From the NCBI GenBank assembly GCA_963737605.1, contig CAVTTE010000013.1:75282-139281 (forward strand): a DNA stretch of 64,000 nt. The letters run 5' to 3'. Below the pieces are notes generated by a model. It was not told the origin of the DNA and made no database searches. It worked only from the letters and a program-made list of their open reading frames with translations. Below, one piece after another: positions 10,322-57,804 of the stretch. Source of the stretch: an uncultured Actinomycetes bacterium (GTDB taxonomy: Bacteria > Actinomycetota > Acidimicrobiia > IMCC26256 > JACDBD01). The position numbers and the translations under genes are program-made. The stretch's first letter is position 1, and every line of letters starts with the position of its first letter.

Positions 10322-10337
10322 CTGACACGAATGTCAG
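10322..10337. promoter_or_regulatory. Palindromic operator CTGACA-CGAA-TGTCAG
   Basis: Perfect 6-bp-arm inverted repeat in the divergent ADH/EEP intergenic region; the same core recurs at 20701 and 57791. Confidence 0.7.
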
Positions 10338-10379
10338 AGCGTAATAGGGTCCGCGCCGGGGGGGGGAATTCGCAGATCG

Positions 10380-11390
10380 GGGCTCGTCATCGTGCTCGTC
10401 GCGCTGCGATGCTGGCATCGCGCTCGCGGCACTGGCTCGCTGACGCTCGGCGCAGCGAGCGCCTGCGAAAGAGGGACGTCGAGGTAGACCTACGGATCGT
10501 CAAATATCAACATCCTGCACGGCATCTTCTGCCCGACCGACACCGACACTTGCCAGGGCCCGACCGAATCGCGCTGTTCCTGACCCAGCTCGAGGCTGCG
10601 AAGTGCCCGCAGGTCGTCGGCCTCCAGGAGAGCGGTCAGCGGTCAGTTCGCCGGGCTGATCAAGAGGCAGCTCCCGTGGTGAGTGCAAGTACGAGATTCC
10701 GATGTCGCTCACGGAAGCCGAGCATCGACAAGGAGCTGGTGTTCACCACGCTTGCCGGCCAAGAACCCGAAGGTGGCCGTCGCTCGCCGGCGGATTCCGC
10801 AACGCGACCCGCGTGGAGCTCCAGTCGGCTCTCGGACCGCTCGTGCTCGTCGTGACGCACCAGGACGGCGATCCGGAGCCCGGCTACCCCAGCCATGCCA
10901 CCCGACCAAGTGCCCACCGGTCTGCCCCGCGGGCACCTCGTTCGCCGCGTGCCAGACGATGCTCGGCGAAGGCAATCGCCGACGACGCCGGCGGGAGAAG
11001 GCGATTCGGCTGCTCATGGGCGACTTCAACGTCCCGGCGGCGACGCCCCGCTACCAGGGCTCATCGCCGGGGCTGGGTCGACTCGCACCTCGCCGCCGGC
11101 AACGCGGAGTGCGACAATGCCACCGGCGTGGACTGCACGGGCGGGCCGGAACGACATGAACACCGACGACCTGAAGGACCCGGCCGGAAGGAATCCGAGC
11201 GCATCGACTTCATCTTCGTGAAGTCGCCGACCAACTGCCCGGTGCAGTTCGACACGCCCAGGGACCGACGCCAAGCGACGGGCTCGGCACGGGGCTCTTC
11301 GCCGACGAGCCCGCCGTCGACGGGCCGGGCGGCATCGTCTACCTCCGACCACACGGGAGTCAGCGCAGACATCTCCTGCGAAAGGGCTGA
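10380..11390 (+). CDS. Secreted endonuclease/exonuclease/phosphatase family protein (heavily frameshifted; start approximate)
   Basis: NILHG, QVVGLQE, LLMGDFNV, ERIDFIFV, SDHTGV: the EEP catalytic motifs in order. Confidence 0.7.
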
Positions 11391-11394
11391 CACC

Positions 11395-13054
11395 ATGAGC
11401 GCAGATCTCGTCATCCGCGGCGGGACCGTCATCGACGGCACCGGTGCGCCGGGCGTGCGCGCCGACGTCGCCATCGCCGACGGCCGCATCGCCGAGATCG
11501 GCGACGGCCTCGACGGCACCCGCGTCCTCGACGCCGCCGGGCACGTCGTGACGCCCGGGTTCATCGACATCCACACGCACTACGACGCGCAGGTGTACTG
11601 GGACCCCGCGCTCACGCCGTCGTCGTGGCACGGCGTCACCAGCGTCGTCGCCGGCAACTGCGGGTTCACGATCGCGCCGTGCCGGCCCGAGCACCGCGAG
11701 CTGATCGCCCGCACGCTGCAGCACGTCGAGGACATGAGCCTCCCCACGCTCCAGGCCGGGATCCCGTGGGACTTCGAGACGTTCCCCGAGTACCTCGACT
11801 CCGTCGAGCGCCACGGCAGCGTCCTCAACTACACCGCGTACGTCGGTCACACCGCGATGCGCCTGTTCGTGATGGGTGACGACGGCTACGAGCGCGAGGC
11901 CACCGACGACGAGCTGCTCGCGATGGCCGACGTCGTGCGCGAGGCGGTGGCGGCGGGCGCGGCGGGCTTCGCGTCGAGCTCGTCGCGCGACGCACAAGGG
12001 CGACGGCGGGCGGCCGGTGCCGTCCCGGCTCGCCGACATCCACGAGATGGAGGTCATCAGCGCCGCTGGCGAGCCGGGCGCGGCGTCGGCGCGTTCCTCC
12101 CGGGCGAGCGGGTCACGCACCCCGAGGTCTACGACCTGCAGCGCGCATCGGCCGGCCGTTCACGTGGACCGCGCTGCTCACGATCAAGGGCTACCCGTGG
12201 CACGAGGACATGGCCGAGCTGAACGCAGAGGAGCGCGCGACGGGCGTCGACGTCTGGCCGCAGGTCACGTGCCGGCCGCTCACGTTCCAGATGAACATGG
12301 AGGAGCCGTTCACGTTCAACATGAACCCGATCTTCGAGGCGCTCATGGACAAGACGGTCGAGGAGCGGCTGGCGGCGTACCGCGATCCCGAGTGGCGCAA
12401 GAAGGCGCAGGACGAGCTGGACGAGCCCCGGTTCTTCAAGCCGAACTGGGAGAAGCTCTCGGTCAGCGAGACCACGAAGTACCCGGAGCTGATCGGGACG
12501 CCGGTTGCGGCGATCGCGAGCGAGCGCGGCCTGCCGCCGCTCGACGCGATGCTCGAGATCGCGGTCGTCGGAGAACCTCGAGACCGCGCTTCCGCAGCAT
12601 CCTCGCCAACGACGACGAGGACGCGATCGGATGGCTGCTCCAGCAGGACGGCATGCTCATCGGCCTGTCCGACGCCGGCGCGCACGTCAGCCAGCTGTGC
12701 GACGCCTGCATGGCCACCGACCTGCTCGGCAACTGGGTACGCGACCGCGGGGTGCTCACGCTGGAGGCCGGCGTGCACAAGCTCACCGGCGAGCCCGCCG
12801 GCGTGTACGGGTTCGCGCGATCGCGGCTGCTCGCGCGAAGGCAGACCGCCGACCTCGCGGTGTTCGATCCCGACACCGTCGCTCCCGGCCCGCTCCGGCG
12901 CATCCGGGACTTCCCCGCCGACGGCGAGCGGCTCGTGGCCGACGCGCCCGAAGGCATGGCGCACGTCGTCGTGAACGGGACGCCGATCCGCGTCGACGGC
13001 GAGCCTGTCCCCGACGCCGTCGCGTCGAAGCCGGGTCGCCTCCTGCGAGGCTGA
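11395..13054 (+). CDS. N-acyl-D-amino-acid deacylase family amidohydrolase (frameshifted)
   Basis: MSADLVIRGGTVIDGTG...PGFIDIHTHYDAQVYWDP...GNCGF...SDAGAHVSQLCD...ADLAVFDP. Confidence 0.9.
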
Positions 13055-13094
13055 TGTCGCGTCAATACGAAGGTACGAATCGACGCCGCGAATG

Positions 13095-13787: not shown

Positions 13788-13823
13788 GGCCCGCCCCCTC
13801 GTCGCTTGCTGGTGTGGCTTCGA

Positions 13824-15021: not shown

Positions 15022-15065
15022 GGCTCCGACGGTAGCCTCGGCCTGACCACGTCCGGCCGGTCCGT

Positions 15066-16169: not shown

Positions 16170-16185
16170 CTCGCTCCCGCTGGAC

Positions 16186-16205
16186 AGGTGACCAAATGGT
16201 CACCT
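16186..16205. promoter_or_regulatory. Probable ArsR operator AGGTGACCA-AA-TGGTCACCT
   Basis: Perfect 9-bp inverted repeat 12 nt upstream of the ArsR ATG. Confidence 0.75.
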
Positions 16206-16217
16206 ATTCTCGCGGGC

Positions 16218-16991: not shown

Positions 16992-17028
16992 GCTGAACGG
17001 ACGCGGGGAGACACCGAAGGAGCGAGAG

Positions 17029-17625: not shown

Positions 17626-17716
17626 CACTGATGGGTTTAGCTGCCCCCTATTTGGCGCGAAACTTCTGGTACCTCCCGAGCGAGGACGAATCGCCTTCGC
17701 CCCCTTGGGAGAACGA

Positions 17717-17758
17717 GGAAGGTGGGAGACCAGATAGGACCGGGGTCTCCCGCCTTCC
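17717..17758. terminator. 15-bp hairpin between convergent genes, probable terminator
   Basis: GGAAGGTGGGAGACC / GGTCTCCCGCCTTCC with one G-U pair and a 12-nt loop. Confidence 0.6.
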
Positions 17759-17788
17759 CGCGTCCGACGAACGAGAGTCGCGCCCGGT

Positions 17789-19008
17789 TCAGCGGCGGTT
17801 CGTGAGGAGCAGGCACCCGGCCAGCGGGCCGCCGCCGGCCGCCGCCACACCGACCTCGGGATCGCCCGGCACCTGGCGCTCCCCCGCCTCGCCCCACAGC
17901 TGCACGCACGCCTCGTGGAGGAACCCGTAGCCGTGCAGCCGGCCCGCCGACAGCTGGCCGCCGTGGGTGTTCAGCGGCGAGCTCGCCGTCGCGCGCGATG
18001 CGCTGCCCGCCCTCGACGAACGGCCCCGACTCGCCCTTGCCGCAGAAGCCCATGGCTTCGAGCCACGACATCGTGATGAAGCTGAACCCGTCGTACATCT
18101 CGGCGAGCTGCACGTCGGACGGCTTGAGGTCGGTGCGCGTCCACATCTGCGCGGCGGCGTCGCGGCACGCCATCGTGGTGAGGTCGTCGAACTGGTCCCA
18201 CGACGGCCGGCCGTGCAGCGCGGTGCCGACCGCCTCGACGTTGATCGGCGGCTTGCGCAGGTCGGGCGACGGTGTCGGCGTGCGACACGATCACCGCGGT
18301 GCCGCCGTCGCACGGCACGTCGCAGTCGAACAGGCACAGCGGCGACGAGATCATCCGGGCGTCGAGGTAGTCGTCCATCGTCATCGGGTCGCGGTAGATC
18401 GCCTTCGGGTTCAGCGCCGCGTTCTTGCGGGCGTTGAGCGCGATCTGCGCCGAGCTGCTCGCGCGTCGTGCCGAACTCGTGGAAGTGGCGCTGCGCGAAC
18501 ATCGCGATCCAGGTCGCCGCCGACGGCGCCGCGAACGGCAGGTTCCACTGCATGAAGCCCGCCGGCGCGGAAGCTTCCGCCGCCGCCCCCGCCGCCGGGC
18601 ATCACCGCGGCGCGGCCCTGCTCGCCCTGGGCGCTGCCCTCGTAGACGCTGCGGAAGCACAGCACGTGCGTCGCGAGCCCGGCCGCGACCGCCATGCACG
18701 CGTCGATCACCGAGCCGAGCTGGCCCGGGCAGCTCGATGCCGCCCGTGTACCAGCCGAGCTCGAGGCGCAGCGCGTCCTGCACTTCGACGACGCCCGCGC
18801 CGGAGAAGCCGGGCGGCGTGTCCATCGGCCCCGGGATAGGTGGCGATGCCGTCGATGTCGGTCGGTGGTGAGGCCGGCGTCCTCGATGGCGGCGAGGCAG
18901 GCGTCGAGCGTGAGGTCGAGCGGGTCGCGGTAGCAGGCGGCGGCCGATGTCGGACTGCCCGACGCCGCTGATGACGGTGCGCCGCTCGATCGGGTCGACG
19001 ACGGCCAT
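17789..19008 (-). CDS. SCP-x/Ltp2-type thiolase-fold protein (frameshifted)
   Basis: VISGVGQSDIGRR, PLCLFDCDVPCDGG, AEMYDGFS, NTHGGQLSAGRLHGYG; no N-terminal catalytic Cys seen. Confidence 0.85.
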
Positions 19009-19437
19009 CAGCGCCACCGGCTCGAACAGCGGGATGTACACCGACTCGTCGCCGTCGTCGTGCCGCTCGAAGACGACCTGCACCGGCATGCCGATGCGCA
19101 CGTCGTCGGGCGGCGCAGTTCACGATGTTGGTCGTGAGCCGCAGCCCTTCCTGCTCGGGCAGCTCGACGATCGCGACGACGTACGGCGGCTCGGGCCCGG
19201 GCATCCACGGCTGGTAGGTTGACCGAGAACGTGTGCACGGTGGCGCGGCCCGACACCGCCTCGACGGCGAGGTTCTTGCCGTGGCACTTCGGGCAGCGCG
19301 GCGTCGGCGGGTGCACGTAGGTGCCGTCGTCCTGGCAGCGCAGGAACCGCAGCTCGCCCTCGGCGCCCGCCGGTCCAGAAGTGCCGGTTCCGGTCGGTGA
19401 TGCGGGGCAGGATCCGGAACGGGACGTCGTCGCTCAT
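19008..19437 (-). CDS. DUF35 Zn-ribbon/OB-fold protein (frameshifted)
   Basis: RCQDDG..HPPTPRCPKC...SGRATVHTF...YVVAIVELPEQEGLRLTTNIV...IPLFEP. Confidence 0.85.
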
Positions 19438-19788
19438 CAGTCGTCCTCTTCGGGCTCCGGGCGCGGCGTCGAAGCCGGCGCGGGCGTGCGGGATCGCCTC
19501 GACCGCCGGGCAGCAGCCCGAACCCGGGCAGCGTGAGCATGATCGAGCCGAGGATCTCGTCCCAGCTCGCGCCGACCTCCTTCGCCAGCATGGCGTGGCG
19601 CCGCACGCCCGCCGGGTTGCGCAGGATCACCGTGCAGACCAGGCGGATCAGCTCGTGGGTCTTGCGGTCGGGCGCCTTCAGCGAGTCGATCTGGCTGAGC
19701 CACGCGTTCTGCGCCGCGTGCAACGACGGGAAGACCTCGTCGAGCGGCTCCTCGAACGGGAAGTCCAGTCCGGCTGCTCCTCCGCCAC
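19437..19788 (-). CDS. Carboxymuconolactone decarboxylase/AhpD-like protein
   Basis: PDRKTHELIRLVCTVILRNPAGVRRHAMLAKEVGASWDEI; no CxxC. Confidence 0.7.
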
Positions 19789-19802
19789 GGCGATGACGAT
19801 AG

Positions 19803-20247
19803 CTACGCCGCTCCCCGGTCTGCACGCTCGGCCCGCGGGGCCGGAACACGGGGATCGTCACGTCCTCCGAGGTCTCCTGGAACAGCGACCTCGAGCGCCA
19901 TGCCGACCTCGAGCGCGTCGAACTCGCAGTCGACGACGTTGGTCATCATCCGCGGGCCCTCGTCGAGGTCGACGACGGCGGCCACGTACGGCACCCGCTC
20001 GGGGAACGGCGGCAGGTCGTTGCGGCGCACGACCGACCACGTGTACAGCGTCGCCCGGCCGCTGGCCTCGACCCACTCGACGTTCGTGCTCCAGCACACC
20101 GGGCAGAACGGCCGGGGATAGAAGTGGTAGCGCCCGCAGTCGCCGCAGCGCCGGATGAGGAGCGTGCCGGCCCGGGCCGCGTCCCAGAACGGCTGGGTCT
20201 CGAGGTCGGGCGCCGGCAGGTCGAAGCGCGGGCCCTGCCGCGGCCAT
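19803..20247 (-). CDS. DUF35 Zn-ribbon/OB-fold protein (frameshifted)
   Basis: PFWDAARAGTLLIRRCGDCG..FYPRPFCPVCWS...SGRATLYTW...LDEGPRMMTNVV. Confidence 0.85.
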
Positions 20248-20678
20248 CAGCCGCGGGTCGGGAGCGCGGCGACGGCCACGCCGCTGATCTTCGCCTCGCC
20301 GTCCTGGTTCACGACCTCGCAGTCGAGGTCGACCCGGTGCTCGCCGTGCTCCTCGTACTTCTTCTGCACGGTGACCTTGGTCGTGAGCGTCTCGCCCGGC
20401 CAGGTCTGCTTGGTGAAGCGCACCTTGTACTCGCGCAGGTTGCCGACGCCGACGAAGTCGGTGAGCGCCTTGCCGAGGATCCCGGCGGTGAACATGCCGT
20501 GCCCGAACACGCTCGGCAGCCCCGAGTCCTTCGCCTTGACCTCGTCGGTGTGCATCGGGTTGAAGTCCCCCGACGCCCCCGCGTACATCACGAGGTCGGT
20601 GCGGGTGAGCTCGTGGGAGAACTCGGGCCCCGTGTCGCCCTCTTTGATGTCGTCGAAGAACAGCTTCTGCTCGGCCAT
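20247..20678 (-). CDS. MaoC-family (R)-hydratase
   Basis: YAGASGDFNPMHTD...VFGHGMFTAG hydratase-2 motif. Confidence 0.92.
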   Translation of the reverse strand: MAEQKLFFDDIKEGDTGPEFSHELTRTDLVMYAGASGDFNPMHTDEVKAKDSGLPSVFGHGMFTAGILGKALTDFVGVGNLREYKVRFTKQTWPGETLTTKVTVQKKYEEHGEHRVDLDCEVVNQDGEAKISGVAVAALPTRG

Positions 20679-20700
20679 AGGTATTGAGTTACCCGTTCCC

Positions 20701-20714
20701 TGACATGGGTGTCA
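20701..20714. promoter_or_regulatory. Palindromic operator TGACA-TGGG-TGTCA
   Basis: Perfect inverted repeat 22 nt upstream of the MaoC/DUF35/thiolase operon start. Confidence 0.7.
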
Positions 20715-20730
20715 ACTTCCCGCGGCGACG

Positions 20731-21138: not shown

Positions 21139-21194
21139 TTCGACCTCCTCGGCTCGGCGTGGTCACCATTCTTCCGGCCTGGGAACGCCGCGGC

Positions 21195-21636
21195 TCAGGT
21201 CGAAGCCTGCGGGCGAGCGGTGGCGCGCACGGTGATGCCGAACTCGTCGCCCGGTGCGACGATCTGGAGCAGCGAGAACTCGACCGAACCTCCGACGGTG
21301 ACCATCACCGCGTCCTCGGTCGCCTCGATGCGGGCGTCGCGAAGCGCCCGGCGATCGAGCTGATCCGCCAGCGACGCCCGCGCCCGGCGTTGAGCATCCG
21401 CGGGCACCAGCCGCACTGCGCCGCTGTCTCCGGTAGGCGGCCTCGTCCAGAGCAGAAGCTCCGGCGACGGCCGCCGCGTCGGCGGTGGCGGCCAGCGTCC
21501 GTCGCTCGGAGAAGGCGCGCCACAGGTCGAGGCTGATCCCGCCGAGGAGGAACAGCATCAGGCACAGCCCGAGCATCCACAACGTGATCGTGCCGGACTC
21601 GCGGCGCTCTCTCGGCTTCGGCTGCCGCTGCTTCAT
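21195..21636 (-). CDS. TadG-like pseudopilin (one indel)
   Basis: ESG|TITLWMLGLCLMLFLLGGISLDLWR...LAATADAAAVAGASALD. Confidence 0.8.
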
Positions 21637-22067
21637 TCGAAGCTCCGGTACTGATCGACCGGCTCGCTGTGATGAGCAGTCCAGCTCCAAGCTCCGACAC
21701 TGCCGATCCCGGGAATCGTGACGGCAGGAACGGCGACGGTCACGGAAGCACGCACGTTGCCGCCGCGCGGGAGCCGTCCGCCAGGCGCACAGTCGAGTTG
21801 CACGTCGACGTCACTGGGCGAGAGCCCGAGGTTTCGCGCCATGTCATGACCGGTCTCGACGGCGCGCCCGCGATCGCAGACCCCCGCCACGGCGACGACC
21901 CGTGACACCTCTCGGGCGATCGAGCGCGCTGTCGTCTGGCGCTCCGACCACGTCGGCAGCGTCAGGACGAGCAACGCGACGGGGAACACCAGCAGGCCAA
22001 CGCCGAGCGCAAGCTCTGCCGCGACATAGCCACCCTCGCGAGACCGGCTATGTCGGCGCACACTCAC
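21633..22067 (-). CDS. TadE/TadF-like pseudopilin
   Basis: EGG|YVAAELALGVGLLVFP...AREVSR; C-terminal VDQYRS. Confidence 0.8.
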   Translation of the reverse strand: MSVRRHSRSREGGYVAAELALGVGLLVFPVALLVLTLPTWSERQTTARSIAREVSRVVAVAGVCDRGRAVETGHDMARNLGLSPSDVDVQLDCAPGGRLPRGGNVRASVTVAVPAVTIPGIGSVGAWSWTAHHSEPVDQYRSFE

Positions 22068-22456
22068 GGGTGCTCCTTCACCGATCGCGCGTCGAGGCTG
22101 AACGTCCAGTCGGGGACCAAACCCGGCAACCATCCGTGCAGCGTGACGTGAACGGTCGCGTGCATCTCGTCCTCGTCGGCGCTCTCGCACCGAACGCTGA
22201 CATCTCTCCCGAGGCGTCCGGCCAACAGGTCCCCGAGGACATCGCGGGCACGTGATTCGCACTCGCCTGTCGTCGCGCCGAACCGACCTCCCGCCCGCGC
22301 CCCCTCGTCGACGGCCGCTCTCACGACCCCACGGGCGTACAGGAACACGATGAAGTTCGCCATCATCACGAAGACGATCAGCGAGAAGGCCGTCGCGGCG
22401 ACGTACTGGACGGTGGTCATGCCTTCCTCACCGCACCGCCGGTCGCCGTCGGCCAC
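22064..22456 (-). CDS. tadE: TadE-like pseudopilin
   Basis: EEG|MTTVQYV...VRAAVDEGARAG. Confidence 0.8.
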   Translation of the reverse strand: MADGDRRCGEEGMTTVQYVAATAFSLIVFVMMANFIVFLYARGVVRAAVDEGARAGGRFGATTGECESRARDVLGDLLAGRLGRDVSVRCESADEDEMHATVHVTLHGWLPGLVPDWTFSLDARSVKEHP

Positions 22457-22458
22457 GC

Positions 22459-22686
22459 TCAGACCCCCAGCTGCCCCCGGATCCAGTTCACGATGTCGAG
22501 CCCGAGGGTCTGGAGGACCGCCCAGATCGCGACGAGCGCTGCGATACCGAGTGCGGCGTTGCCCAGTAACTCGGCCGTTGTCATCCCATCTTCCGACCTG
22601 GCGGCCGAGCCCACCCGGGCCACCAAGCCGATCCACCACGACGTCGGAGCCCACCCTTCGTCTCCCTTCGTGTCTGCGTGCACCAT
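22459..22686 (-). CDS. flp: Flp-type major pilin
   Basis: Short protein with prepilin site SEDG|MTTAE followed by a hydrophobic helix, directly after tadC. Confidence 0.75.
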   Translation of the reverse strand: MVHADTKGDEGWAPTSWWIGLVARVGSAARSEDGMTTAELLGNAALGIAALVAIWAVLQTLGLDIVNWIRGQLGV

Positions 22687-22693
22687 TGATCGA

Positions 22694-23635
22694 TCAACGG
22701 CTCCCGAAGATGACCGACGGGAGCGGAGCGGCAATGAACAGGAGCATGATCGGAGCGAGGATCGCGATGGTCGGCACGAGCATCGCGGCGCGGCGCTTTG
22801 TCGCAAGACGACGCAGATCCTCTCGACGCGCGTCACGGAGGTCCTCACTCAAGGCGCGCAGCGCACCCCCGAGGTCGACGCCACGCTCTGCGCCCGTGGC
22901 GAACAACTTGTACGTACGGGCGACACTCGGCTCGGGCGTCAACTCGGCGGCACGCCGGAAGGCGTCCGGCTCCGACACGCCGCTGCGCACCCACGTCAAC
23001 ACGGCGTCGAGCTCCTCGACCATGGCGCCCGTCCCGCGATCCACGATGCGCTGCGTCGCTTGCACCGGCCCCGCGCCGGTTCGCAGATGGATGGCGAGCA
23101 GCTGGTTCACCGTGTAGAGCTCGAGCCGCAAGCGGTCGCGGCGATCTTCGATGGCCCGGTCGATGCGGCCCTTCCAGCGCGTGGACCCGTACACGAGGCC
23201 ACACACGGCGAGCAGGAGCGTCAGCAAAGGCGACCGAATCGCGATGCCGATCGCGCCGCCCGCTGCGCTGAACAGCGCAGCCTGACCGAGGGCACGGATC
23301 CGATACTCCTCGGTGGTCAGGTCGTGGAACCCGGCCTGTCGCAGCTTGAGACGCAAGTGCTCGTCACTTCGGGTTTCGACCAGCCGACCCACTCGAGCTG
23401 CGAGCGCGTGCAACGGCGGCCAGAACAACAGGCTCACGATGCCGCCGTGCGCAGGCGCGCTTTGTTGCGCCACGCCCAGCACATCTGCGCTGCGCCCCAA
23501 GTCGGCGCGAGCGACGATCGTGTAGGGCCGTACCCGACCGGCAAGTCGTGGCGTCGGCTTGACGACCAGACCGGCGACTCCGGCGCAGAGGAGCGCGGCG
23601 GACATCCCTCCGAGGACGAGGATGCCGGTGCTCAT
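22694..23635 (-). CDS. tadC: TadC / T2SS F-family platform protein
   Basis: LAIHLRTGAGPVQA...ERGVDLGGALRALSEDLR...MLVPTIAILAP. Confidence 0.85.
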   Translation of the reverse strand: MSTGILVLGGMSAALLCAGVAGLVVKPTPRLAGRVRPYTIVARADLGRSADVLGVAQQSAPAHGGIVSLLFWPPLHALAARVGRLVETRSDEHLRLKLRQAGFHDLTTEEYRIRALGQAALFSAAGGAIGIAIRSPLLTLLLAVCGLVYGSTRWKGRIDRAIEDRRDRLRLELYTVNQLLAIHLRTGAGPVQATQRIVDRGTGAMVEELDAVLTWVRSGVSEPDAFRRAAELTPEPSVARTYKLFATGAERGVDLGGALRALSEDLRDARREDLRRLATKRRAAMLVPTIAILAPIMLLFIAAPLPSVIFGSR

Positions 23636-24532
23636 GCGCGCTCTCTCGTTGCGACCGTCGCGCTGGACCCGAACACTCGCTGCTCGGCGCGCGTGCTCGC
23701 CAGCCGAGCGATGAGGAATCCGCCGGCGACGCTGAGCAAGCCGGCGATGAGCACGACGACGAGACCTCCCGTCGATCGGTAGAAGTCGCGGAATGGCCCT
23801 TCTCTGATCGTGAGGGCGACCAGCACGAGCCACGGGAGCACGAGCACGGCTCGGGCGTTGATCTTCATCTCCAAGCCCTCGGTCTCCACCTCTTCCAGCA
23901 GCTTCAGGTCGCGTGTCGTTGCGGCGACGAGGTCCTCGAGGATGTCCCGCACGATCTGTCCGCCTCGCTCGTGCGCGATCACCAGAACCTCGATCACCCG
24001 GTCGCTCGTGGGATCAGCAAGCTCCTCCTTGATGACCTCGAGGGCCGGGACGGTCCCCAACATCCGCGACAGCATCGGGAAGCGCGTAAACGCCTCTTGA
24101 AGCGGTGCAGGGCCGGATGCCGCGAGCGCGTTGAGCGCTTGTGACAACGAGCGCCCGGCCGCGATCGAAGCAACGACGTCGCGGAGCCCATCGGGCCAAG
24201 CCGCCTGCACTCGTCGCAGATGAGCCGTCCGCCGGCGAGCGAAGTACGCGCGCGGCAGATGCCGCGACACCCGCTGCGGGGACCAACGCAACCAACGGCG
24301 CACCGGTCACGGCCACGATGGCGACGAACGCGACCGCGCCGACGGCGACCGACCCCGCGATGAATTGCCGGGGCGTGACCGCAACTCCCGCCTGGTTGAG
24401 CCACAGTTGGCGGTTGCTGATCTGGGCTCGGCGGCGGAACCGCCGGATCTTGATCTCGGGCGTGTAGCCCGTCGCGTACCCGACGAGGAAGTACACGAAG
24501 ACGCCGACGGCGAGCCCTGCGAGCAGCGTCAT
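23632..24532 (-). CDS. tadB: TadB / T2SS F-family platform protein (one indel near 24260)
   Basis: AWPDGLRDVVASIAAGRSLSQAL...ERGGQIVRDILEDL...NARAVLVLPWLV. Confidence 0.85.
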
Positions 24533-25812
24533 CGCGGTACCTCGGCGCCTTCGACGATGGCCCGCAAGCTCAGACCTCGAGGTAACGACCGATCGACACG
24601 GCTCTCGAGACGTGCCGGGAGGACTCCGGTCCACTCGAGCGGGCGCCCAAGGGCTTCGCGCACGAAGATGGGTTCGACGGTGAAGTCCTCGCTGAGAGCG
24701 GGAACCACAGCCACGATCTCCATGACCTGACGGCGGATCCCGTCGGTGTCGTTCGGCGGGATGTCGTCGCGGTCGAGATGGATCACCAGATCGAGCGACT
24801 GCGAGAAGACCTTGCGGACGATGCGCTCGGTGACGTTCTCGCCCGCCATCAGCGCCGCGTTCACGAGCGCGTGCAGCGCCTCGGTCGCGTTGTTGGCGTG
24901 GATGGTGCAGAGAAACCCGCAGCCGGCGTTGACCGCCCGGCTCAGCTCGAACGCTTCGGCGCCACGCACTTCGCCGACGACGATGCGGTCGGGGCGCATC
25001 GCGAGCACGAACTTGACGAGGTCGCGCAGGCTGATCTCGCCCGTCCCGTCGAGCGCCGGCGGCCGGACCTCGTAGTACGACCCGTGGGTGACCGGCACTG
25101 CGATCTCGCGGATCTCCTCGCAACAGCGGACGCAGTGACTCGCGGGCTCGGCGGCGATGAGGGCGGCCGCCATCGTGGTCTTGCCGGCTCCAGGCTCGCC
25201 CGAGATCGCCAACCGGCTGCGCACCTGCATCATCGCCCAGAGGAAGTCGGCGGCCTCCGGGCTGATCGAGTCGAGGTCGACGAGACTTCCGAGTGTCACG
25301 TTGCGGACCGTGTATCTCCGGAGCGTCGCCGACAGGCGATCACCGACAGGTGGGATCGCCGCCGTCAGGCGGGCGCTTCCTTGCAGGACGCGGGCCTGGA
25401 CGATCGGGTGCTTCGTGTTGAGCTGCCGATCGGTTGGCGCGAGCAGCCGTTCGACGATCTGGCGGTTCTCGCCCTCGCCGGTCGGCGTCGTCAGGCCGCG
25501 CAACCGGCCCGACGAGTCGAGAAATGACACACGCGGGCCCTCGAAGAAGATCTCCTCGACGTCGGGGCGGGCGATCAGCTCCGTCAACGGTCCGAAGTCG
25601 GTGATCGACCGCAGGACCCGGCCGATCATCTCGCCCGGATCACTGAGAGGAATCTCGTCACCAAGATGGGCGCGGCGCTGATACTCGTCGACGGCGCGAT
25701 GCACCTCGGACTGCACCTCGTCGAGATCACCCTCGGGCCGGAGCCGCCGTCGCTCGATACGGACGAGGGCATCGCGGCGGATGCCGTCGTAGGCGTCGGC
25801 GCGGACAGTCAT
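24529..25812 (-). CDS. tadA: TadA/CpaF pilus assembly ATPase
   Basis: FGPLTELIARPDVEEIF, Walker A GEPGAGKTT, MRPDRIVVGEVRGAEA, CTIHAN. Confidence 0.92.
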   Translation of the reverse strand: MTVRADAYDGIRRDALVRIERRRLRPEGDLDEVQSEVHRAVDEYQRRAHLGDEIPLSDPGEMIGRVLRSITDFGPLTELIARPDVEEIFFEGPRVSFLDSSGRLRGLTTPTGEGENRQIVERLLAPTDRQLNTKHPIVQARVLQGSARLTAAIPPVGDRLSATLRRYTVRNVTLGSLVDLDSISPEAADFLWAMMQVRSRLAISGEPGAGKTTMAAALIAAEPASHCVRCCEEIREIAVPVTHGSYYEVRPPALDGTGEISLRDLVKFVLAMRPDRIVVGEVRGAEAFELSRAVNAGCGFLCTIHANNATEALHALVNAALMAGENVTERIVRKVFSQSLDLVIHLDRDDIPPNDTDGIRRQVMEIVAVVPALSEDFTVEPIFVREALGRPLEWTGVLPARLESRVDRSLPRGLSLRAIVEGAEVPR

Positions 25813-27060
25813 CGCGTCACGACGGGCACGCGTCCTCGGCGCTTCCCCGATCCGCCCTTCGCCCGCGCCGGGCGACGGCGACGGCGGCACGACCTTCGTC
25901 GCGAGCTCCGCGACCGCCTTCGCATAGGGGCCGTGAGCAACCAGCGTGCCGGACCAAGCCGCCGCCTCGACCCGAGGATCGTGCGGCAGGAACACGAGAC
26001 TCGCGGGCTCGAACGTCCGACGGATCTCCTGTTCGAGCTGGGCCTTCCGGAACGCGTCGCGTGGAGCCCGGTTGATAGCGAGATGAATCGTTGCACCCGC
26101 GTTCAGAGCACGAACCTCCGCCACCCAGCCGAGCAAGCGGGTCACGCCGACAGGCGTGGCAGGGGCGACGCCGATCACGTCGGATGCGTCGCACACGACC
26201 GCGCGGCTGATGCCGTACCGGCTCCGCCCACCGCGACCAACGTCCTCCAAACGGCTCGCGATGTTGGCGATGACGTACCGCCGAGTCCGACCGACTGCCT
26301 CGATCACGTCGAGCACCTCGGTCGGACGCACCTGCGACCAAGCGCCGACATTGGGGAGACCCGACAGCACGTCGAGCTCGCGCGCAGCTCGAACGATCGC
26401 CGTATCCACGTCGCCCATGCCGTATTCGACGGACTCGATCGCGCTCCGCAGGTTGGGCTCGATCGGCAACCCGAGGCGTTGCGCGATCGACGGGACCACC
26501 TCGTCCGCATCGACGATCGCGGCGCGCCCTCCCTGGCTGCGAAGCGCGGCCGTGAACGCGATCGCCAGCTCGGTGGCACCGGCGCCGGGCGTCCCGCCGA
26601 CGGCGAAGAGCCGCCAGCTCCGCAATCGATCTCCGTGGGCGAGCGGCGTCGGCACTCGCTGCCCGTCGACGGCAGCCTCGAGTGCGCTGATGGACGGCGC
26701 GGGCTGGTGGCGCTCGGGCGCAAGGGCGGTGAAGACGTCGACGAACTCCGCCATGGCGGCGTCCGACGCGAGCACCCGGTCGATGCCCAGCGACGCGAGG
26801 AACTCGCGTCCCGCTGGTTCCTCAGGATCGAAGACACCGAGCAGGCAGCGGCCGCGCCGGTGGACCGACTCGACGAACGTTCGCGTCAGCCCGGGCCAGC
26901 GATGGCTCACGACGAGCGTGCCGTACTCCTCGTCGAACGCCAGCGTCGGGTCCACGATGACCTGTCGGACTCGCGCGCCGCCGTGATCGGTGAGGTGGCG
27001 ATGCAGGCCCTCGACCCACGCCTCGGGCGAGAAGACGAGCGCGACTTCCGGCTCGGGCAT
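25809..27060 (-). CDS. TadZ/CpaE-like protein (pseudo-receiver + degenerate MinD-type P-loop); reads in frame into tadA in this sequence
   Basis: GGTPGAGATELA (Lys-less Walker A), AIVDAD, HLAINRAP, FLPHDP; ATGA overlap at 25809-25812. Confidence 0.75.
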
Positions 27061-27062
27061 CC

Positions 27063-27818
27063 CTACCGTCCGCTTGCGCCGGCCGACGCATCGACGGGCA
27101 AGGGCGGCGTCGCCTCAGCCGGGCGCGAACCGGTCGTCCTCGTGATCACGATGTCGCCACCGGCAATCCCGGCCGCAACGAGCTGCGATTCGCGCGCGTC
27201 GACGGCGAGCGTCACCGTGAACTTGTCGTCCACCCCGCCGAACGCCCCTCCCCGATCGGGCCGTCCCACGCTCAGGACCTCGGCGTCGGCGACGATGATC
27301 GACACCTCGTGATTGCCGGCCAGGATCACGTCGACGCGGTCACCCGCTTCGAGTTCGCCGTTGACAGCCCGGGCCGGATCGATCGCGACGCTCATCGCGC
27401 GCTTGCCCGCCGGTGCAGCGGCCGGACGGACGGCCCGGCGATGAACCAGCTCACCGGCTGCAATCGGATAGGCGGCGACGGAGTCGCGCAACCGCTTCAC
27501 GTCGTTGGGCTGGAGCACTGTGCCCAGGAGCGAGTCGTCCATCTTCACCCGCTCGTAGCGAACCGATGACTCGGTGAGCGCGGAGCCGGGCGCGAGGTCC
27601 CGAGCGGCCACGGCAACCGGTTGCCGCTCGTCCGCGCGGCGAAGCACCGCCACTGTCAGCAGGAGTCCGAGCAACCCGGCGACGATCATCACCAGATGGC
27701 CGGTCGAGAACCGGCTCATCAGACTCCGGGGCAGCGAAGTGGCGGGCCGGGTGACGCTCTCGGTGCGCCGTGATCTCGGCGCCACCACCTCCGCCATCCA
27801 CCCCTCCGCCGCCGTCAC
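27063..27818 (-). CDS. cpaB: CpaB/RcpC SAF-domain protein
   Basis: VAVAARDLAPG (SAF), KRAMSVAIDPARAVNGELEAGDRVDVI, VTLAVD. Confidence 0.85.
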   Translation of the reverse strand: MTAAEGWMAEVVAPRSRRTESVTRPATSLPRSLMSRFSTGHLVMIVAGLLGLLLTVAVLRRADERQPVAVAARDLAPGSALTESSVRYERVKMDDSLLGTVLQPNDVKRLRDSVAAYPIAAGELVHRRAVRPAAAPAGKRAMSVAIDPARAVNGELEAGDRVDVILAGNHEVSIIVADAEVLSVGRPDRGGAFGGVDDKFTVTLAVDARESQLVAAGIAGGDIVITRTTGSRPAEATPPLPVDASAGASGR

Positions 27819-49863: not shown

Positions 49864-50551
49864 GCGACTGAGCCGACGTGGGCGGCTCGGATTGCGAGCA
49901 CATCGGTCAGGGTCTGCTCGCGCAGCCGGCCAACACGCTGTCGAGCCTGGCGTACGTGCTGGCGGGCGTGCTGCTCCTCCGGCGCGCGCTCGCCGGCCGC
50001 GTCCGGGCGCGCGCATCGTGCCGGCCGTGTACGCGGTGACGGTGATCGGCGTCGGAATCGGCAGCGCGGCGTTCCACGGTCCGATGCCGGCATGGGGCCG
50101 CTTCGGGCACGACCTCTCGATTGCCGCGGTGCTCGCGTTCGTCATCGGCTACGACGTGGCGCTCGCCCGTGGCGCTTCGGCGAACGCGGGCCTGGCGATG
50201 TTCGTCGGGATAGCCGGCGCGTGCGCGGTGGTGCTCGCGGTCTCGCCCGACGCCGGCAACGCGCTCGACGCGGTGCTCGTCGCCGGAGCGGTCGTCGCGG
50301 AGATCGGCGCCTCCCGCTCGGCCGCGGGGCGCGCAACGGCCGACGGGCGGCTCTGGATCGCGATCGTCGGCGTGGTCACGATCGGCGCGCTCCTCAACGC
50401 GCTCGGTCGCACCGATGCGCCGCTCTGTGAGCCGGAGAGCCCGGTGCAGCTGCACGCGGTCTGGCACGTGCTCACCGCGTTCGTGCTGTGGCTGTACGGG
50501 TCGGCCGTCTTGGGGCCGCGTGAGCAGGCTCGGCCTAAGATTCGGGCGTGA
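49860..50551 (+). CDS. Ceramidase-like (CREST superfamily) membrane hydrolase (indels)
   Basis: DCE...QPANTLSSLAY; GIGSAAFHG (SxxxH); HDLS; QLHAVWHVL (HxxxH). Confidence 0.75.
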
Positions 50552-51978
50552 CTTCCCCGGTTCGGGTTCTGGCCGTGGGCGCGGCCGCGCCCGCACGGCG
50601 ACTGGCGGCCGCCGACGTCGCCGCCGCCTGGGGTCGCGGCGGCGGGCGGGGCCAGGTCGGGGTGTGCGCCCCCGACGAGGACGTGCTCACGCTGGCGGCG
50701 GAGGCTGCGTCCCGCGCCATGGCGGCCGCCGGGCTCGAGAACGACATCGTGGACGGCCTGTGGTGGGGCACCACCCGTCCGCCCTTCGCCGAGGGGCCGA
50801 GCCACGCCGTCCTGGCCTCGGCGCTGGGGCTGTCGGCGCACTCCGGCGGCGCGCTGTTCTCGGGGTCGCCGCACGCGGGGATGGACGCTCTGCTCGGTGC
50901 GTACGACGCGATCGCCGCCGGGAGCGCACAGGTTGCGCTCGTCGTGGCGGCAGACGCGCTCGTGCCGGGGCCGGGCACCACGTTCGAGGAGCGCGCCGGC
51001 GGGGGCGCGGCTGCCGTCGTGCTCGTCTCGGAGGGCGGCCACGCGTCGCTGCCCGCCCGCGTCACCCGCACACATCCGTTCCTCGACCGCTACCGCTCCG
51101 ACGCCGACGACGGGACGCGCGATCTCTACGACGCGCGCCTGTTCCGGGAGGAGATCTTCCTGCCGGTCGTGCAGGAGGTCGGCGAGCAGCTCGCCGCGCT
51201 CGAGATCGACGAGTGGTCGCTCCCCGACCCCGACGGCCGCCTCGGCGCGACCGCCGCGCGCAAGCTCGGAGGCGGCGCGCCCGCCTCGGCGAGTGTGTAC
51301 GCCGCCATCGGCGACACGGGTGCGGCCGCCCCGCTCCTGGGCGCGCTCGGCTCGCTCGACGCCGCGCGGACCGTCGCCGTCGTCGGCTTCGGTGGAGGAC
51401 GCGCCACCGGGATCGTGATCAACGCCGACGGCCCCGTGCGCGGCGCGGCGACCGTCGGTGACGCGTGGGCCGGCGGTCAGTCGATCTCGTACGCCGAGGC
51501 GTTGCGCGCCCGCGGGCAGCTTCAGGCCGTCGGCGAGACCATCCCGATGGGCGTCCCGCCCGAGAGCGCGCTGTTCGTGCGCGGCGCGGAGGAGATGCTC
51601 GGGCTCCTCGGGGCCCGGTGTGTCGACTGCGGCACGATCAACACTCCGCCGACGATCCACCCGTACTGCATCAGCTGCGGCAGCACGAAGTTCGTGCTGG
51701 TCTCGCTGGCCCGTCGGGGGGTCGTGCACACGTTCGTCGTCAACCACACGATGCCCCCACCGTTCGAGGCGCCGTTGCCCCTGGCCGTCATCGACCTCGC
51801 CGACGGCGCGCGCGTGATGCTGCAGGTGATCGGCGACGGGAGCGACATGCGGATCGGCGCCGAGGTCGAGCTGGTGCTGCGCCGGTACGCCTTCGAACGG
51901 GGCGTGCCCGTCTACGGGTTCAAGGCCCGGACGATCGCGACGCGACCGCGAATCGAGCGAGGAGTAGCGGAGCACGCC
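50548..51978 (+). CDS. HMG-CoA synthase/KAS III-like domain fused to DUF35 Zn-ribbon/OB-fold; in frame with the thiolase in this sequence
   Basis: DEDVLTLAAEA, GGGAAAVVL, IGDTGAA, RCVDCG...CISCG, LVLRRY...YGFKAR. Confidence 0.85.
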
Positions 51979-53154
51979 ATGGGTTGGAATCGCGTAGCCG
52001 TGGCCGGCGCCGGCCTCATCAAGTTCGGTGAGCTGTTCGAGCAGAGCTACGAGCAGATGGCGGCGGGGGCGTTCCAAGCTGCGGTCGCCAACGTCGACCG
52101 GGGCGTCGAGCCGGAGCAGATCGACGCCGTGTTCGTCGCCACCCAGCGGGGGACGCTCTGGGGCCAGGAAGGGATCGGCGGGAACACGGTGCCGACCGCC
52201 ATCGGCCTCGCCGGCGTCCCGTGCACGCGGATCGAGAACGCCTGCCCGTCGGGCTCGGATGCGTTCCGCGTCGGCGCGATGGCCGTGGCGAGCGGGGTGC
52301 ACGACGTCGTCCTCGTCATCGGGGTCGAGAAGATGCGCGACAAGTCGACCGAGGAAGGCCTGCTCTCGCGGGCTGCGGCCGGGCATCCGATCCTGACCCG
52401 GGGTGAGACCGCGCCGGTGCTGTTCGCGCCCTTCGCCACCCGCCACATGAACGACTACGGGACGACGCGCGAGATGCTCGCCTCCGTCGCCGTGAAGAAC
52501 CACCACAACGGCGCCCGCGACCCGTACGCGCACTTCCAGAACGAGATCACGGTCGAGAACGTCCTCGACTCGCCGCCCGTGTGCCATCCGCTGCACCTGC
52601 TCGACTGCTGCCCGCAGACGGACGGCGCCGCGGCCACGATCCTCGTCAACGCCGATCGGGCCGCCGAGTTCACGGACAAGCCCGTGTACGTCGCCGGCTT
52701 CGGCGTCGCCACCGACCACCCGTACCTGCACGAGAAGCAGAGCTTCACCGGCCTCAAGGCCACGACCCTCGCCAGCGAGCGGGCGTACCGGATGGCGGGG
52801 GTCGACCCGAGCCAGATCGACTCGGCCGAGGTGCACGACTGCTTCACCATCACCGAGATCCTCGACGTCGAAGACCTCGGCTTCTTCGACAAGGGCAAGG
52901 GAGGCGTCGCTTCGCTCGAGGGCGAGACCTCGCTCACCGGCCGCATCCCGATCAACACGTCGGGCGGCCTCCTGGCGAAGGGGCACCCGATCGGCGCCAC
53001 CGGCGTCGCCCAGCTCACCGAGTGCTGGTGGCAGCTGCGGGGCGAGGCGGGCGAGCGGCAGGTCGAGATGCGCAACGGGTACGCGCTCCAGCACAACGTG
53101 GGCGGCCGCGGCTCGGGCGTCTCGGTCGTCAACATCCTCACGACCAACCGGTAG
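51979..53154 (+). CDS. Thiolase (SCP2/archaeal-type)
   Basis: IENACPSGSDA, EVHDCFT, NTSGGLLAKGHPIGATG, HNVGG. Confidence 0.92.
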   Translation: MGWNRVAVAGAGLIKFGELFEQSYEQMAAGAFQAAVANVDRGVEPEQIDAVFVATQRGTLWGQEGIGGNTVPTAIGLAGVPCTRIENACPSGSDAFRVGAMAVASGVHDVVLVIGVEKMRDKSTEEGLLSRAAAGHPILTRGETAPVLFAPFATRHMNDYGTTREMLASVAVKNHHNGARDPYAHFQNEITVENVLDSPPVCHPLHLLDCCPQTDGAAATILVNADRAAEFTDKPVYVAGFGVATDHPYLHEKQSFTGLKATTLASERAYRMAGVDPSQIDSAEVHDCFTITEILDVEDLGFFDKGKGGVASLEGETSLTGRIPINTSGGLLAKGHPIGATGVAQLTECWWQLRGEAGERQVEMRNGYALQHNVGGRGSGVSVVNILTTNR

Positions 53155-53161
53155 GCGGCTG

Positions 53162-53956: not shown

Positions 53957-53958
53957 GC

Positions 53959-55143: not shown

Positions 55144-55145
55144 CC

Positions 55146-56135: not shown

Positions 56136-56901
56136 TCAGGCGGGTCGTGCTGCGACACGCGCGAGCGCGTCGGCGATGAACGGGTAGGCGGCGTCGGCCC
56201 ACGCCGTGTGACCGATCCGGTTGGGGTGGAAGAGGTCGGCGCAGAACATCTCGGCGGTCCGGAACCGCGCGTCCGTGAGCTCGGCGATCGGGACCTTCAC
56301 GACGTGGTCGTGGCGGGCGGCGACCCGGGCGTGGGCACGGTCGAAGGCCGCGCTCCGCCGGGACGCCAGCGCCTTCAGCGGGTGCGCGAGCCGGGGGATG
56401 TTGCCGAGGTCGCCGATGCCCGTGAGCACGACGTCCGTTCCCGCCTCACCGAACGCCTCGACGACGGCGTCGAGATCGGCTTCGAAGCGTCGCAAGCCGC
56501 GTGCCGTGGGTCGCGTCGTTCGCGCCGACCGACACGACGGCGACGTCGGGCCGCAGGCGCTGCGCTTCCGGAACCTGACCGACGAGCACGTCACGCACCC
56601 TCGACCCGCCGGCGGCGACGCTCACCAACCGGATGCGCAGATCGGCGGCGAGTCGTCGCACCACCTGCCGGGACCACAGATCGTCACACGACTCGAGCCC
56701 GGGACCGGTGACGGTCGAGTCGCCGAGCAGGACGAGCCGAACCTCGGGGGCCGAATCCGGCCCGAACACGCAGTCGGGATCGAGGTCGCGGAAGCTCGGG
56801 AGCGGACGGTGCGCGACGTACCAGAACTGCGCCGCGACCGTCCCGACCGCGGCCATGGCCGCGAACGGGACCCCCGCCGCTCCCGCCAGCCCGAGTCGCA
56901 T
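56136..56901 (-). CDS. SGNH/GDSL hydrolase (one indel)
   Basis: LLGDSTVTG, SVGANDA, DLFHPNRIGH. Confidence 0.88.
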
Positions 56902-56963
56902 CCGCGCTGCCACGGGCACATTCTCCGACGCCGCGCACAGGATCGGGTGGATTTCGGAGCGAA

Positions 56964-57743
56964 CTACGAGCGGAGCGCGCCCGGCTCGTCGAGCCAGCGG
57001 TTCAGCGCCGCCGTCCGGGCGTTGCGGCAGATCAGCACGTGCTCGACGACGCGGCGGACCCGGCGCTGCTGCCCGGCCGTGACCGCCACCTGCCGCAGCA
57101 GGTAGTCGGCCTCGACGCCCGTGGTCCTCCTCGGCATAGGCGTGCACCTTGAAGTTCTCGACCTCGATGCCGTAGTGGTCCCGCATGCCCTCGTACATCT
57201 TCACCGCGTAGTTGGTGGAGGCGGCGAAGCGCTCGCCCGCCCAGCCGAAGGCGGCCAGGCCCTCCTCGTACGACCGGCGCATGTAGAAGAGCGTCGTGAA
57301 CACCGAGCCGATCGACTCGGGCATGGCGCGGTACGACACGAGCTCCTCGTCGGTGATGCCGAGCTGGTGGGCCCAGTCGACCTTCATGTCGAGGTGGTTG
57401 CGGTCCCCCGCGAAGCCCATCTCGTCGGCGAGGTTCTGCGCCCAGTGGACGAAGTGCTCGCTGCTGCCGAGATCGACGGCGTCGACGTCCGGGCGCGTTC
57501 GACACGATCGAGCCGAACTCGCTCGTGTACCACTTGCCGAGGAAGTAGTACTCCTTGCACAGCCGCTTGAGCAGGTCCATCGACAGGGTCCCGTCGGCGA
57601 CCCGCTCCCACACGAGGTTCTTCTCGGTCGCGACCTCGGCTTGGAGCGCCTCGAGCGACGACCATGAACTCGTCGACCGGCTGCGCGGGCGCGTTCTCGG
57701 CGCCGGACCCGCGGATGTCCCGGAACTCGCGGTGCTCGGACAT
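56964..57743 (-). CDS. Heme-oxygenase-like diiron enzyme (TenA/PqqC/CADD superfamily; frameshifted)
   Basis: Reconstructed helices with NLADEMG...NHL, AGER, FKVHAYAEEDHG: an E-x8-H / E / H-x3-E-x2-H ligand set. Confidence 0.75.
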
Positions 57744-57790
57744 GGCCGCTCCTCTATCTCCGCCTGACGACCGAAGGCTACGATATAGGG

Positions 57791-57804
57791 TGACATAGGT
57801 GTCA
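57791..57804. promoter_or_regulatory. Palindromic operator TGACA-TAGG-TGTCA
   Basis: Perfect inverted repeat centred in the 106-nt divergent gap between the diiron enzyme and hydantoinase B genes. Confidence 0.72.

What the first reader, a model, noticed from the sequence alone, without database searches (positions are those of the whole stretch)
10322..57804. Recurring TGACA-N4-TGTCA palindrome defines a candidate catabolic regulon
Seen: three perfect copies, all intergenic and within ~50 nt of start codons. They are 10323-10336 (Zn-ADH / EEP-amidohydrolase divergent gap), 20701-20714 (MaoC-DUF35-CMD-DUF35-thiolase operon) and 57791-57804 (diiron enzyme / hydantoinase-GMC divergent gap). The last two differ at one base. 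My rough estimate, assuming 70% GC, is about 0.01 chance copies of these 10 fixed bases per 64 kb, although the motif was picked post hoc. No regulator gene lies next to any of the three, and the motif is not the mycobacterial KstR box. Inference: one trans-acting dimeric regulator couples these dispersed operons into a single, possibly undescribed, catabolic network.
Basis: partly seen in the sequence, partly recalled or inferred. Interest (0 to 1): 0.72.

Follow-up and report, generated by a model that had tools for sequence, protein, structure and literature searches.

The report
Acidimicrobiia fat-breakdown TetR repressor regulon
The three palindromes are real, conserved promoter sites from a set of about 35 in this uncultured Acidimicrobiia genome, likely bound by one self-regulating TetR repressor that would control acyl-CoA (fat-type) breakdown genes: an ordinary kind of circuit, with a regulator I found no paper on.

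Summary
The three copies are real (chance 0.01 per window). They are the perfect members of a broader box, cTGAC[A/G]-N4-[T/C]GTCAg, with 33 intergenic sites in this 64%-complete Acidimicrobiia genome. Those sites are enriched before acyl-CoA/beta-oxidation genes (16 of 33 vs 171 of 1610). All three are conserved before orthologous genes across families (27/29, 28/29, 25/30; controls 0) and overlap predicted -35, -10 or +1 positions, as repressor sites do.

The likely regulator is a TetR with an EthR-like fold, encoded 22 kb beyond the window. It is the only one of 29 TetR genes with a strong own box, and 63 of 69 orthologues carry that box. Box-rich genomes track its family: 20 of 24 with it, 0 of 95 without. 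A box-less paralogue with the same recognition helix may share the sites.

It is not KstR: separate KstR-like genes and boxes exist in this genome. The exact string equals the CusR/CopR copper box, but targets and context do not fit. Binding and ligand (acyl-CoA likely) are untested. The scan reached the same reading earlier on another genome (e1-4126249). Verdict: new member of a known kind; modest interest.

The parts
10323..10336 (.). Operator site 1 (class A box). Lies 1 nt downstream of a predicted minus-strand -10 (TACGCT, 10338-10343), so it would cover +1 of the Zn-ADH gene
   Evidence: kept before 25 of 30 ADH orthologues
9135..10292 (-). Zn-dependent alcohol dehydrogenase, frameshifted in this assembly; target of site 1; end approximate
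   Evidence: Pfam ADH_N and ADH_zinc_N; intact in relatives
10350..13054 (+). Divergent EEP-like gene (frameshifted, start approximate) and Amidohydro_3 gene; possible secondary targets of site 1
   Evidence: amidohydrolase; Exo_endo_phos at this place in relative L233; amidohydrolase directly divergent in L230
20701..20714 (.). Operator site 2. Its arm is the predicted minus-strand -35 (TTGACA, 20710-20715); 18-nt spacer; predicted -10 at 20686-20691; predicted leaderless start at 20678
   Evidence: kept before 27 of 29 MaoC orthologues, all 27 reading TTGAC there
17789..20678 (-). MaoC hydratase - ChsH2/DUF35 - unknown small gene - ChsH2/DUF35 - SCP2-type thiolase operon; target of site 2
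   Evidence: Pfam
57791..57804 (.). Operator site 3. Begins 6 nt after a predicted plus-strand -10 (TACGAT, 57779-57784), i.e. at the predicted +1 of the hydantoinase-like operon. (The candidate regulator for all three sites, TetR P0001, lies outside the window at G000:C13:161134-161817, +, with its own box at C13:161054.)
   Evidence: kept before 28 of 29 hydantoinase-B orthologues; regulator:
57850..64000 (+). Hydantoinase/oxoprolinase B and A subunits, an unknown gene and a GMC oxidoreductase; target operon of site 3 (frameshifted)
   Evidence: Pfam; weak caprolactamase-model hits far below cut-off; PDB hydantoinase and acetophenone carboxylase hits
57032..57743 (-). Heme-oxygenase-like diiron enzyme divergent from site 3; possible target; this neighbour is not constant across families
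   Evidence: Pfam Haem_oxygenas_2; DUF6597 at this place in L201

Best explanation
The three palindromes are conserved promoter-overlapping members of a genome-wide box, cTGAC[A/G]-N4-[T/C]GTCAg, that is likely the operator of an Acidimicrobiia TetR repressor (P0001, EthR-like fold), predicted to repress its own gene and about 35 promoters of acyl-CoA/beta-oxidation and feeder-oxidation genes. Shown: the box, its enrichment, its conservation, its overlap with promoter-like hexamers, its target classes, and its link to this TetR clade. Inferred: a P0001 dimer binds one TGAC half-site per subunit and blocks RNA polymerase at -35, -10 or +1; a lipophilic effector, most likely a fatty acyl-CoA (about 55%), fills the long ligand pocket and releases the DNA, switching on CoA ligases, acyl-CoA dehydrogenases, hydratases, thiolases, P450s and dehydrogenases together. 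A 55%-identical paralogue with the same recognition helix may also read the box.
For: Motif: 39 sites at <=1 mismatch with N4 vs 7-15 at other spacers; 33 intergenic PWM sites vs 0-9 for 20 column-shuffled PWMs. Targets: 16 of 33 vs 171 of 1610 background gaps (p 9e-8) and 43 of 209 within the same dense regions (p 0.001). Footprint: 27/29, 28/29, 25/30 vs 0/27, 0/29, 0/30 control windows. Promoter overlap; a TANNNT ending on the box's first T in 11 of 66 orientations vs about 1.5 expected. Regulator: the only one of 29 TetR loci with a box above 12 bits within 400 nt; box upstream in 63 of 69 orthologue-clade rows vs 3 of 48 others, and in 14 rows with no divergent MaoC hit; TGAC-N6-GTCA is the top de novo dyad upstream of 44 distant homologues (23 of 44). 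Co-occurrence: 20 of 24 genomes with the family have >=21 pattern hits vs 0 of 95 without; within the order 19 of 19 vs 0 of 10. G026 (100% complete) has only the orthologue and 42 hits. Fold: EthR, Z 20.0, rmsd 2.7 over 191 residues.
Against: No binding or expression data. The own-gene box in G000 is shared with a divergent MaoC operon. G067 (97% complete) has 28 hits but only the box-less paralogue was found. G022's single copy has no upstream box. G081 has 33 hits with only a 39% homologue. Four family-f23 genomes have the gene and its box but only 7-13 hits. Genomes are kin, and the TetR travels with the catabolic genes, so co-occurrence alone cannot single it out. The >=21 cut was chosen after seeing the data. 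Non-TetR families were checked only for one LuxR-type and ten OmpR-type regulators. A few sites precede non-catabolic genes (mIHF-gmk-rpoZ, an ECF sigma). The ligand is inferred from target classes only.
Confidence: 0.75

Rival explanations
1. The box-less paralogue (G000:C6:530730-531257, 55% identical, same recognition helix) is the main or an equal reader of the box: either two effector inputs on one operator set, or a heterodimer.
For: Recognition helix TSHGTFYLYF in 102 of 119 family rows, both clades included; both genes are usually present; G067 has 28 hits with only the paralogue found.
Against: None of the 16 rows of the paralogue's core clade has an upstream box; G026 has only the orthologue and a full set; G067 is in 90 contigs and may simply lack the gene in the assembly.
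Confidence: 0.12
2. A KstR-like TetR with shifted specificity binds the box (TnnCACnnGTGnnA differs from the KstR core only at positions 4 and 11), making this a steroid regulon.
For: Same 14-bp geometry as TnnAACnnGTTnnA; two KstR-like genes in the genome, one inside the box-dense region; ChsH2, Ltp-type thiolase, IpdE2-like and FadD17/CasI-like targets, all below curated cut-offs.
Against: Neither KstR-like gene has a class A box upstream (scores -2.7 and -2.5). The C6 gene has a KstR-type palindrome just upstream, and canonical KstR boxes cluster around the C8 gene. KshA_C was not found in this 64%-complete assembly.
Confidence: 0.04
3. An OmpR-family response regulator of the CusR/CopR or GraR type binds the sites, since TGACA-N4-TGTCA is their published consensus.
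For: [quoted passage not shown]
Against: No copper genes among the first genes behind 33 annotated sites; none of 10 OmpR-type genes has a box within 400 nt upstream (coordinates compared); position 5 is G as often as A; the sites overlap core promoter elements.
Confidence: 0.03
4. The palindrome is two back-to-back -35 hexamers (TTGACA-like) of overlapping divergent promoters, not a factor-binding site.
For: At site 2 one arm is TTGAC in 27 of 27 orthologues; many sites lie in divergent gaps.
Against: Site 2 is not in a divergent gap; the base before TGAC is C in 82% of half-sites; sites 1 and 3 lie at -10/+1; spacing is fixed at N6; the box is tied to one gene class and one TetR clade.
Confidence: 0.02

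Closest known systems
Mycobacterial KstR regulon (PMC1995591, passages read)
   Same: Autoregulated TetR repressor; 14-bp palindrome over the core promoter; tens of intergenic sites, often in divergent gaps; lipid-degradation targets.
   Different: Different box (TnnAACnnGTTnnA) and a different protein: P0001 has no NF033703 hit at E<=0.001. Separate KstR-like genes and boxes coexist in this genome.
TetR-type FadR of Bacillus, Thermus and Sulfolobus (PDB 3WHB/5GP9/6EL2; PMC5597230 and PMC6449355 passages)
   Same: TetR repressor of dispersed beta-oxidation operons; among the best sequence hits in the PDB.
   Different: NF053878 score 50 vs cut-off 200, matching the HTH only; the Thermus box is the 15-bp TTRNACYNRGTNYAA; the Sulfolobus logo could not be seen; acyl-CoA sensing is untested here.
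M. tuberculosis EthR (PDB 5MYM, 1U9N; PMC3326297 and PMC7382501 passages)
   Same: Closest solved fold (Z 19-20, about 3 units above FasR); best profile hit in the PDB (E 1.6e-17); some homologues carry PF21313; long hydrophobic pocket that held hexadecyl octanoate.
   Different: 22% identity; EthR binds a 55-bp operator cooperatively in the ethA-ethR gap, whereas this protein is linked to a 14-16-bp palindrome at about 35 promoters.
CusR/CopR copper box (PMC12428095 passage)
   Same: Identical 10-base string TGACA-N4-TGTCA.
   Different: OmpR-family activators of copper genes in Proteobacteria; here the targets, the box position and the linked regulator all differ.

Membership tests
TetR-family repressor regulon | N-terminal TetR HTH | tested here: met
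   PF00440 E 6e-17
TetR-family repressor regulon | All-helical TetR ligand/dimer domain | tested here: met
   AlphaFold model pLDDT 86; EthR Z 20.0
TetR-family repressor regulon | Short palindrome conserved upstream of its own gene | tested here: met
   63 of 69 orthologue-clade rows vs 3 of 48 others; de novo top dyad
TetR-family repressor regulon | Direct binding and ligand-induced release | not testable with these tools
   needs EMSA or DAP-seq
KstR | Box TnnAACnnGTTnnA | tested here: not met
   class A has C/G at positions 4/11; true KstR boxes occur separately
KstR | Protein is a KstR orthologue | tested here: not met
   no NF033703 hit for P0001; other genes score 172 and 110 bits
KstR | Steroid ring-opening genes (kshA) in the regulon | tested here: inconclusive
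   PF19298 not found, but the assembly is 64% complete
Bacillus-type FadR | Family model above cut-off | tested here: not met
   NF053878 50 vs 200 bits
Bacillus-type FadR | Controls dispersed beta-oxidation operons | tested here: met
   (prediction from sites)
Bacillus-type FadR | Long-chain acyl-CoA effector | not testable with these tools
   inferred from target classes only
EthR | EthR-like fold | tested here: met
EthR | Long cooperative 55-bp operator beside a divergent ethA monooxygenase | tested here: not met
   14-16-bp box; the divergent neighbour is usually MaoC
CusR/CopR regulon | TGACA-N4-TGTCA string | tested here: met
CusR/CopR regulon | Copper-resistance targets and a box at an OmpR-type regulator gene | tested here: not met
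   one search compared

The most novel reading that the evidence does not exclude
This EthR-fold TetR is the undescribed master switch of lipid and hydrocarbon catabolism in a large order of Acidimicrobiia. A paralogue pair with identical DNA-reading helices but diverged pockets reads one operator set as a two-input (possibly heterodimeric) gate, and a fused double-TetR cousin reads an asymmetric TAAC-N6-GTCA box. Its ligand would point to the natural effector class of EthR-like repressors, which one paper calls unidentified.
Probability: 0.2. Interest if true: 0.58.

Novelty: new member of a known kind. Interest (0 to 1): 0.33.

Why it matters
It gives a testable regulator, box and target list for carbon catabolism in Acidimicrobiia, a mostly uncultured group for which one literature search found no regulon paper. 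The box is a cheap marker for grouping unknown genes (hydantoinase-like, diiron, DUF35, P450) into one acyl-CoA pathway. The mechanism itself, a TetR repressor over beta-oxidation genes, is textbook, so interest is moderate.

Tried and rejected
1. The strict 10-base motif: only 3 copies genome-wide; it is a subset of a wider box.
2. One merged TGAC-N6-GTCA motif: it splits into two classes (0/1/2 half-sites with C at position 5 in 28/5/15 sites vs 19/22/6 expected).
3. KstR-like TetRs as binders: rejected.
4. The LuxR-type response regulator behind site C6:687059: close orthologues occur only in the own genus; no match in motif-rich G063, G067, G096 and G131; generic hits of about 45% identity in 6 of 8 motif-poor genomes.
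5. OmpR/CusR: rejected on context.
6. Expression: four runs laid on 57000-60000 were all contigs of relatives, with no start or strand information, so inconclusive. They do show single extra bases in the window at 57115, 57662 and 58135-58138, so the frameshifts are likely assembly errors.
7. The protein atlas gave no result. Two FdmR paper look-ups, with ids from recall, found nothing held, so FdmR's box was not compared. The motif logos of 30 mycobacterial TetRs (PMC4482099, Table 2) are pictures and could not be read. RegPrecise and CollecTF were not available.
8. My own errors: the paralogue was read in the wrong frame, so the 'bitsPar' column and that tree tip are void; corrected.
9. No complex prediction was run: a heterodimer of 55%-identical TetRs would pass by likeness.
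Full report
OBSERVATION. The window holds exactly three TGACA-N4-TGTCA copies at the stated places; shuffles give 0.01. They are the only exact copies in the 3.34-Mb, 64%-complete assembly G000, where the window is C13:75282-139281. All are intergenic and 22-47 nt from start codons. Close homologues are labelled Acidimicrobiia. The assembly is full of frameshifts, likely errors, so I called genes with a hexamer model and scanned the fragments separately.

THE REAL BOX. With one mismatch allowed there are 39 sites at spacer N4 (25 intergenic) against 7-15 at N2, 3, 5, 6 and 7. TGAC-N6-GTCA gives 45 intergenic hits against 3-17 for other spacers 0-15. These split into class A, cTGAC[A/G]-N4-[T/C]GTCAg, which includes the three window sites, and class B, cTTGACCG-N2-CGGTCAag. 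Class A has 33 intergenic sites at >=14 bits (53 in all); 20 column-shuffled matrices gave 0-9 intergenic hits (1-48 in all). My gene cores mask a few plausible sites, and 39 sites score >=17 bits. The matrix was trained on this genome, so its own counts are partly circular. 26 of the 33 sites lie in three regions that make up 14% of the assembly.

TARGETS. I annotated the first genes behind 30 class A sites outside the window. By my reading, 19 of 30 lead to acyl-CoA dehydrogenases, CoA ligases, thiolases, enoyl-CoA or MaoC hydratases, ChsH2, CoA transferases or a thioesterase. Most others lead to P450s, ALDH, SDRs or hydrolases. Three do not fit (mIHF-gmk-rpoZ, DUF6529, an ECF sigma). An automated rule gave 16 of 33 against 171 of 1610 background 5' gaps (p 9e-8) and 43 of 209 inside the same regions (p 0.001). 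Steroid-flavoured models score below cut-off and KshA_C was not found, so the substrate is best called acyl-CoA/lipid-type, not specifically steroid.

CONSERVATION AND PROMOTER GEOMETRY. I searched 39 chosen genomes (same genus or motif-rich) and took the 30 best loci for each of three window genes. The box lies before 27 of 29 MaoC, 28 of 29 hydantoinase-B and 25 of 30 ADH orthologues; one row each was dropped from the first two sets for short flanks. Control windows inside the operons gave 0 of 27, 0 of 29 and 0 of 30. The arms stay fixed while the spacer varies (conditional on detection by the matrix). At site 2 one arm is the -35 hexamer; at site 1 the box follows the -10 by 1 nt; at site 3 it starts at the predicted +1. 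Genome-wide, a TANNNT ends on the box's first T in 11 of 66 orientations, about 1.5 expected. These promoter calls are consensus matches, not mapped starts.

REGULATOR. Of 29 TetR loci (30 matches), only P0001 at C13:161134-161817 has a class A box above 12 bits within 400 nt (20.1, at C13:161054; next best 11.1). It lies 22 kb past the window's right end, divergent from a MaoC-SDR operon. In a FastTree tree of 119 non-identical homologues, its clade (support 0.81) has the box in 63 of 69 rows (2 of 71 dropped for short flanks) against 3 of 48 outside. Fourteen boxed rows have no divergent MaoC hit (one locus is truncated), which points to autoregulation. Dyad enumeration without my matrix ranks TGAC-N6-GTCA first upstream of 44 homologues at 55-80% identity (23 of 44; next 18). 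Among 121 class genomes, 20 of 24 with the family (E<=1e-40) have >=21 pattern hits (median 36) against 0 of 95 without (median 3, maximum 19); two weak hits have 33 and 5; within the order it is 19 of 19 against 0 of 10. The cut was set after the fact and the genomes are kin. In 301 phylum genomes the family is rare (34 hits at E<=1e-30) and motif counts are mostly low, yet 4 of 10 distant homologues with the same helix keep an upstream box. The model folds as a TetR, closest to EthR (Z 20.0, 22% identity; FasR 16.7).

AGAINST. There are no binding data. A paralogue (55% identical, same recognition helix, no own box) is usually present. G067 has 28 hits with only that paralogue found, G022's single copy lacks a box, G081 has 33 hits with a 39% homologue, and four f23 genomes have gene and box but 7-13 hits. 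G166, with no family hit, has 23 hits in 8.5 Mb.

RIVALS. The KstR box differs at two mirrored positions, but the genome's two KstR-like genes lack class A boxes and KstR-type boxes occur beside them. The exact string is published for CusR/CopR and upstream of vraFG, but there are no copper targets and no box at any of 10 OmpR-type genes (one search compared). A LuxR-type regulator behind one site does not track the motif.

LITERATURE. Nine searches were run. One search (Acidimicrobiia + regulon + transcription factor binding) found 0 papers; one search found the string only in plant papers, CopR/CusR and GraSR. I read matched passages only, of PMC1995591, PMC4482099, PMC5597230, PMC6449355, PMC7382501, PMC3326297, PMC3388012, PMC12428095 and PMC3128592; all others I saw as listings. 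Logos in figures, supplements, the FdmR paper, RegPrecise and CollecTF were not seen and could hold a match. Unpublished genomes: G012 is one row among the 63 of 69; G144 and G188 are two negatives; no conclusion depends on them.

VERDICT. A real, order-wide conserved operator and a strongly implicated TetR repressor of acyl-CoA catabolism. The sites being transcription-factor operators: about 0.95. P0001 as the main reader: about 0.75. Acyl-CoA effector: about 0.55. New member of a known kind; interest 0.33.

Noticed in passing
G000 genome-wide; e.g. C6:477690, C6:212178, C7:240341, C12:230726: A second box, cTTGACCG-N2-CGGTCAag (18 intergenic sites), with one copy 84 nt upstream of the HTH of TetR P0002 (C6:477774). 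Targets include acyl-CoA dehydrogenases, ALDH, ADH, SDR, ECH and metallo-beta-lactamase-fold genes. Likely a second TetR regulon; best NCBIfam hit FasR, 65 vs 330 bits.
   Followed up: partly
G000:C7:512736, 516421, 525338; double TetR at C7:525505-526319; L339 in G139: A fused double-TetR related to P0001 (one helix of the SHG type, one not) sits near three sites, two of them asymmetric TAAC-N6-GTCA, before xanthine-dehydrogenase-like, SDR/P450 and aldo-keto reductase genes; the same asymmetric sites recur upstream of its homologue in G139.
   Followed up: partly
G000:C8:140028-198628 and C6:705049-705588 (L012:2050-2660): A separate canonical KstR-type system: two KstR-like genes and a cluster of five AAC-N2-GTT boxes before amidohydrolase, sulfotransferase, F420/luciferase-like, ALDH and acyl-CoA dehydrogenase genes.
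   Followed up: partly
window 16189-16202: Palindrome TGACCAAATGGTCA just before an ArsR-HTH/SRPBCC gene; likely that gene's own operator, not class A (scores 1.8 vs 21.5).
   Followed up: partly
window 50548-53154: An 868-aa fusion with an unassigned N-terminus, a ChsH2 zinc-ribbon/OB domain and a thiolase, followed by ECH and two acyl-CoA dehydrogenases, with no class A box nearby.
   Followed up: no
window 21163-27818: Tad/Flp pilus cluster (TadE/G, two TadB/C, an 843-aa ParA-like plus CpaF ATPase, CpaB).
   Followed up: no
window 57850-61341: The hydantoinase-B-like protein is unusually conserved across the order (80-98% identity in 30 loci) and nearly always carries the box; its substrate is unknown.
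   Followed up: partly
whole window: Dense single-base frameshifts, likely long-read assembly errors.
   Followed up: partly
L263, L264, L269, L276 (other Actinomycetota families): Homologues only 32-38% identical that keep the SHGTFY helix have the class A box upstream (4 of 10 such loci); 0 of 10 loci with a GHGTFY helix do.
   Followed up: partly
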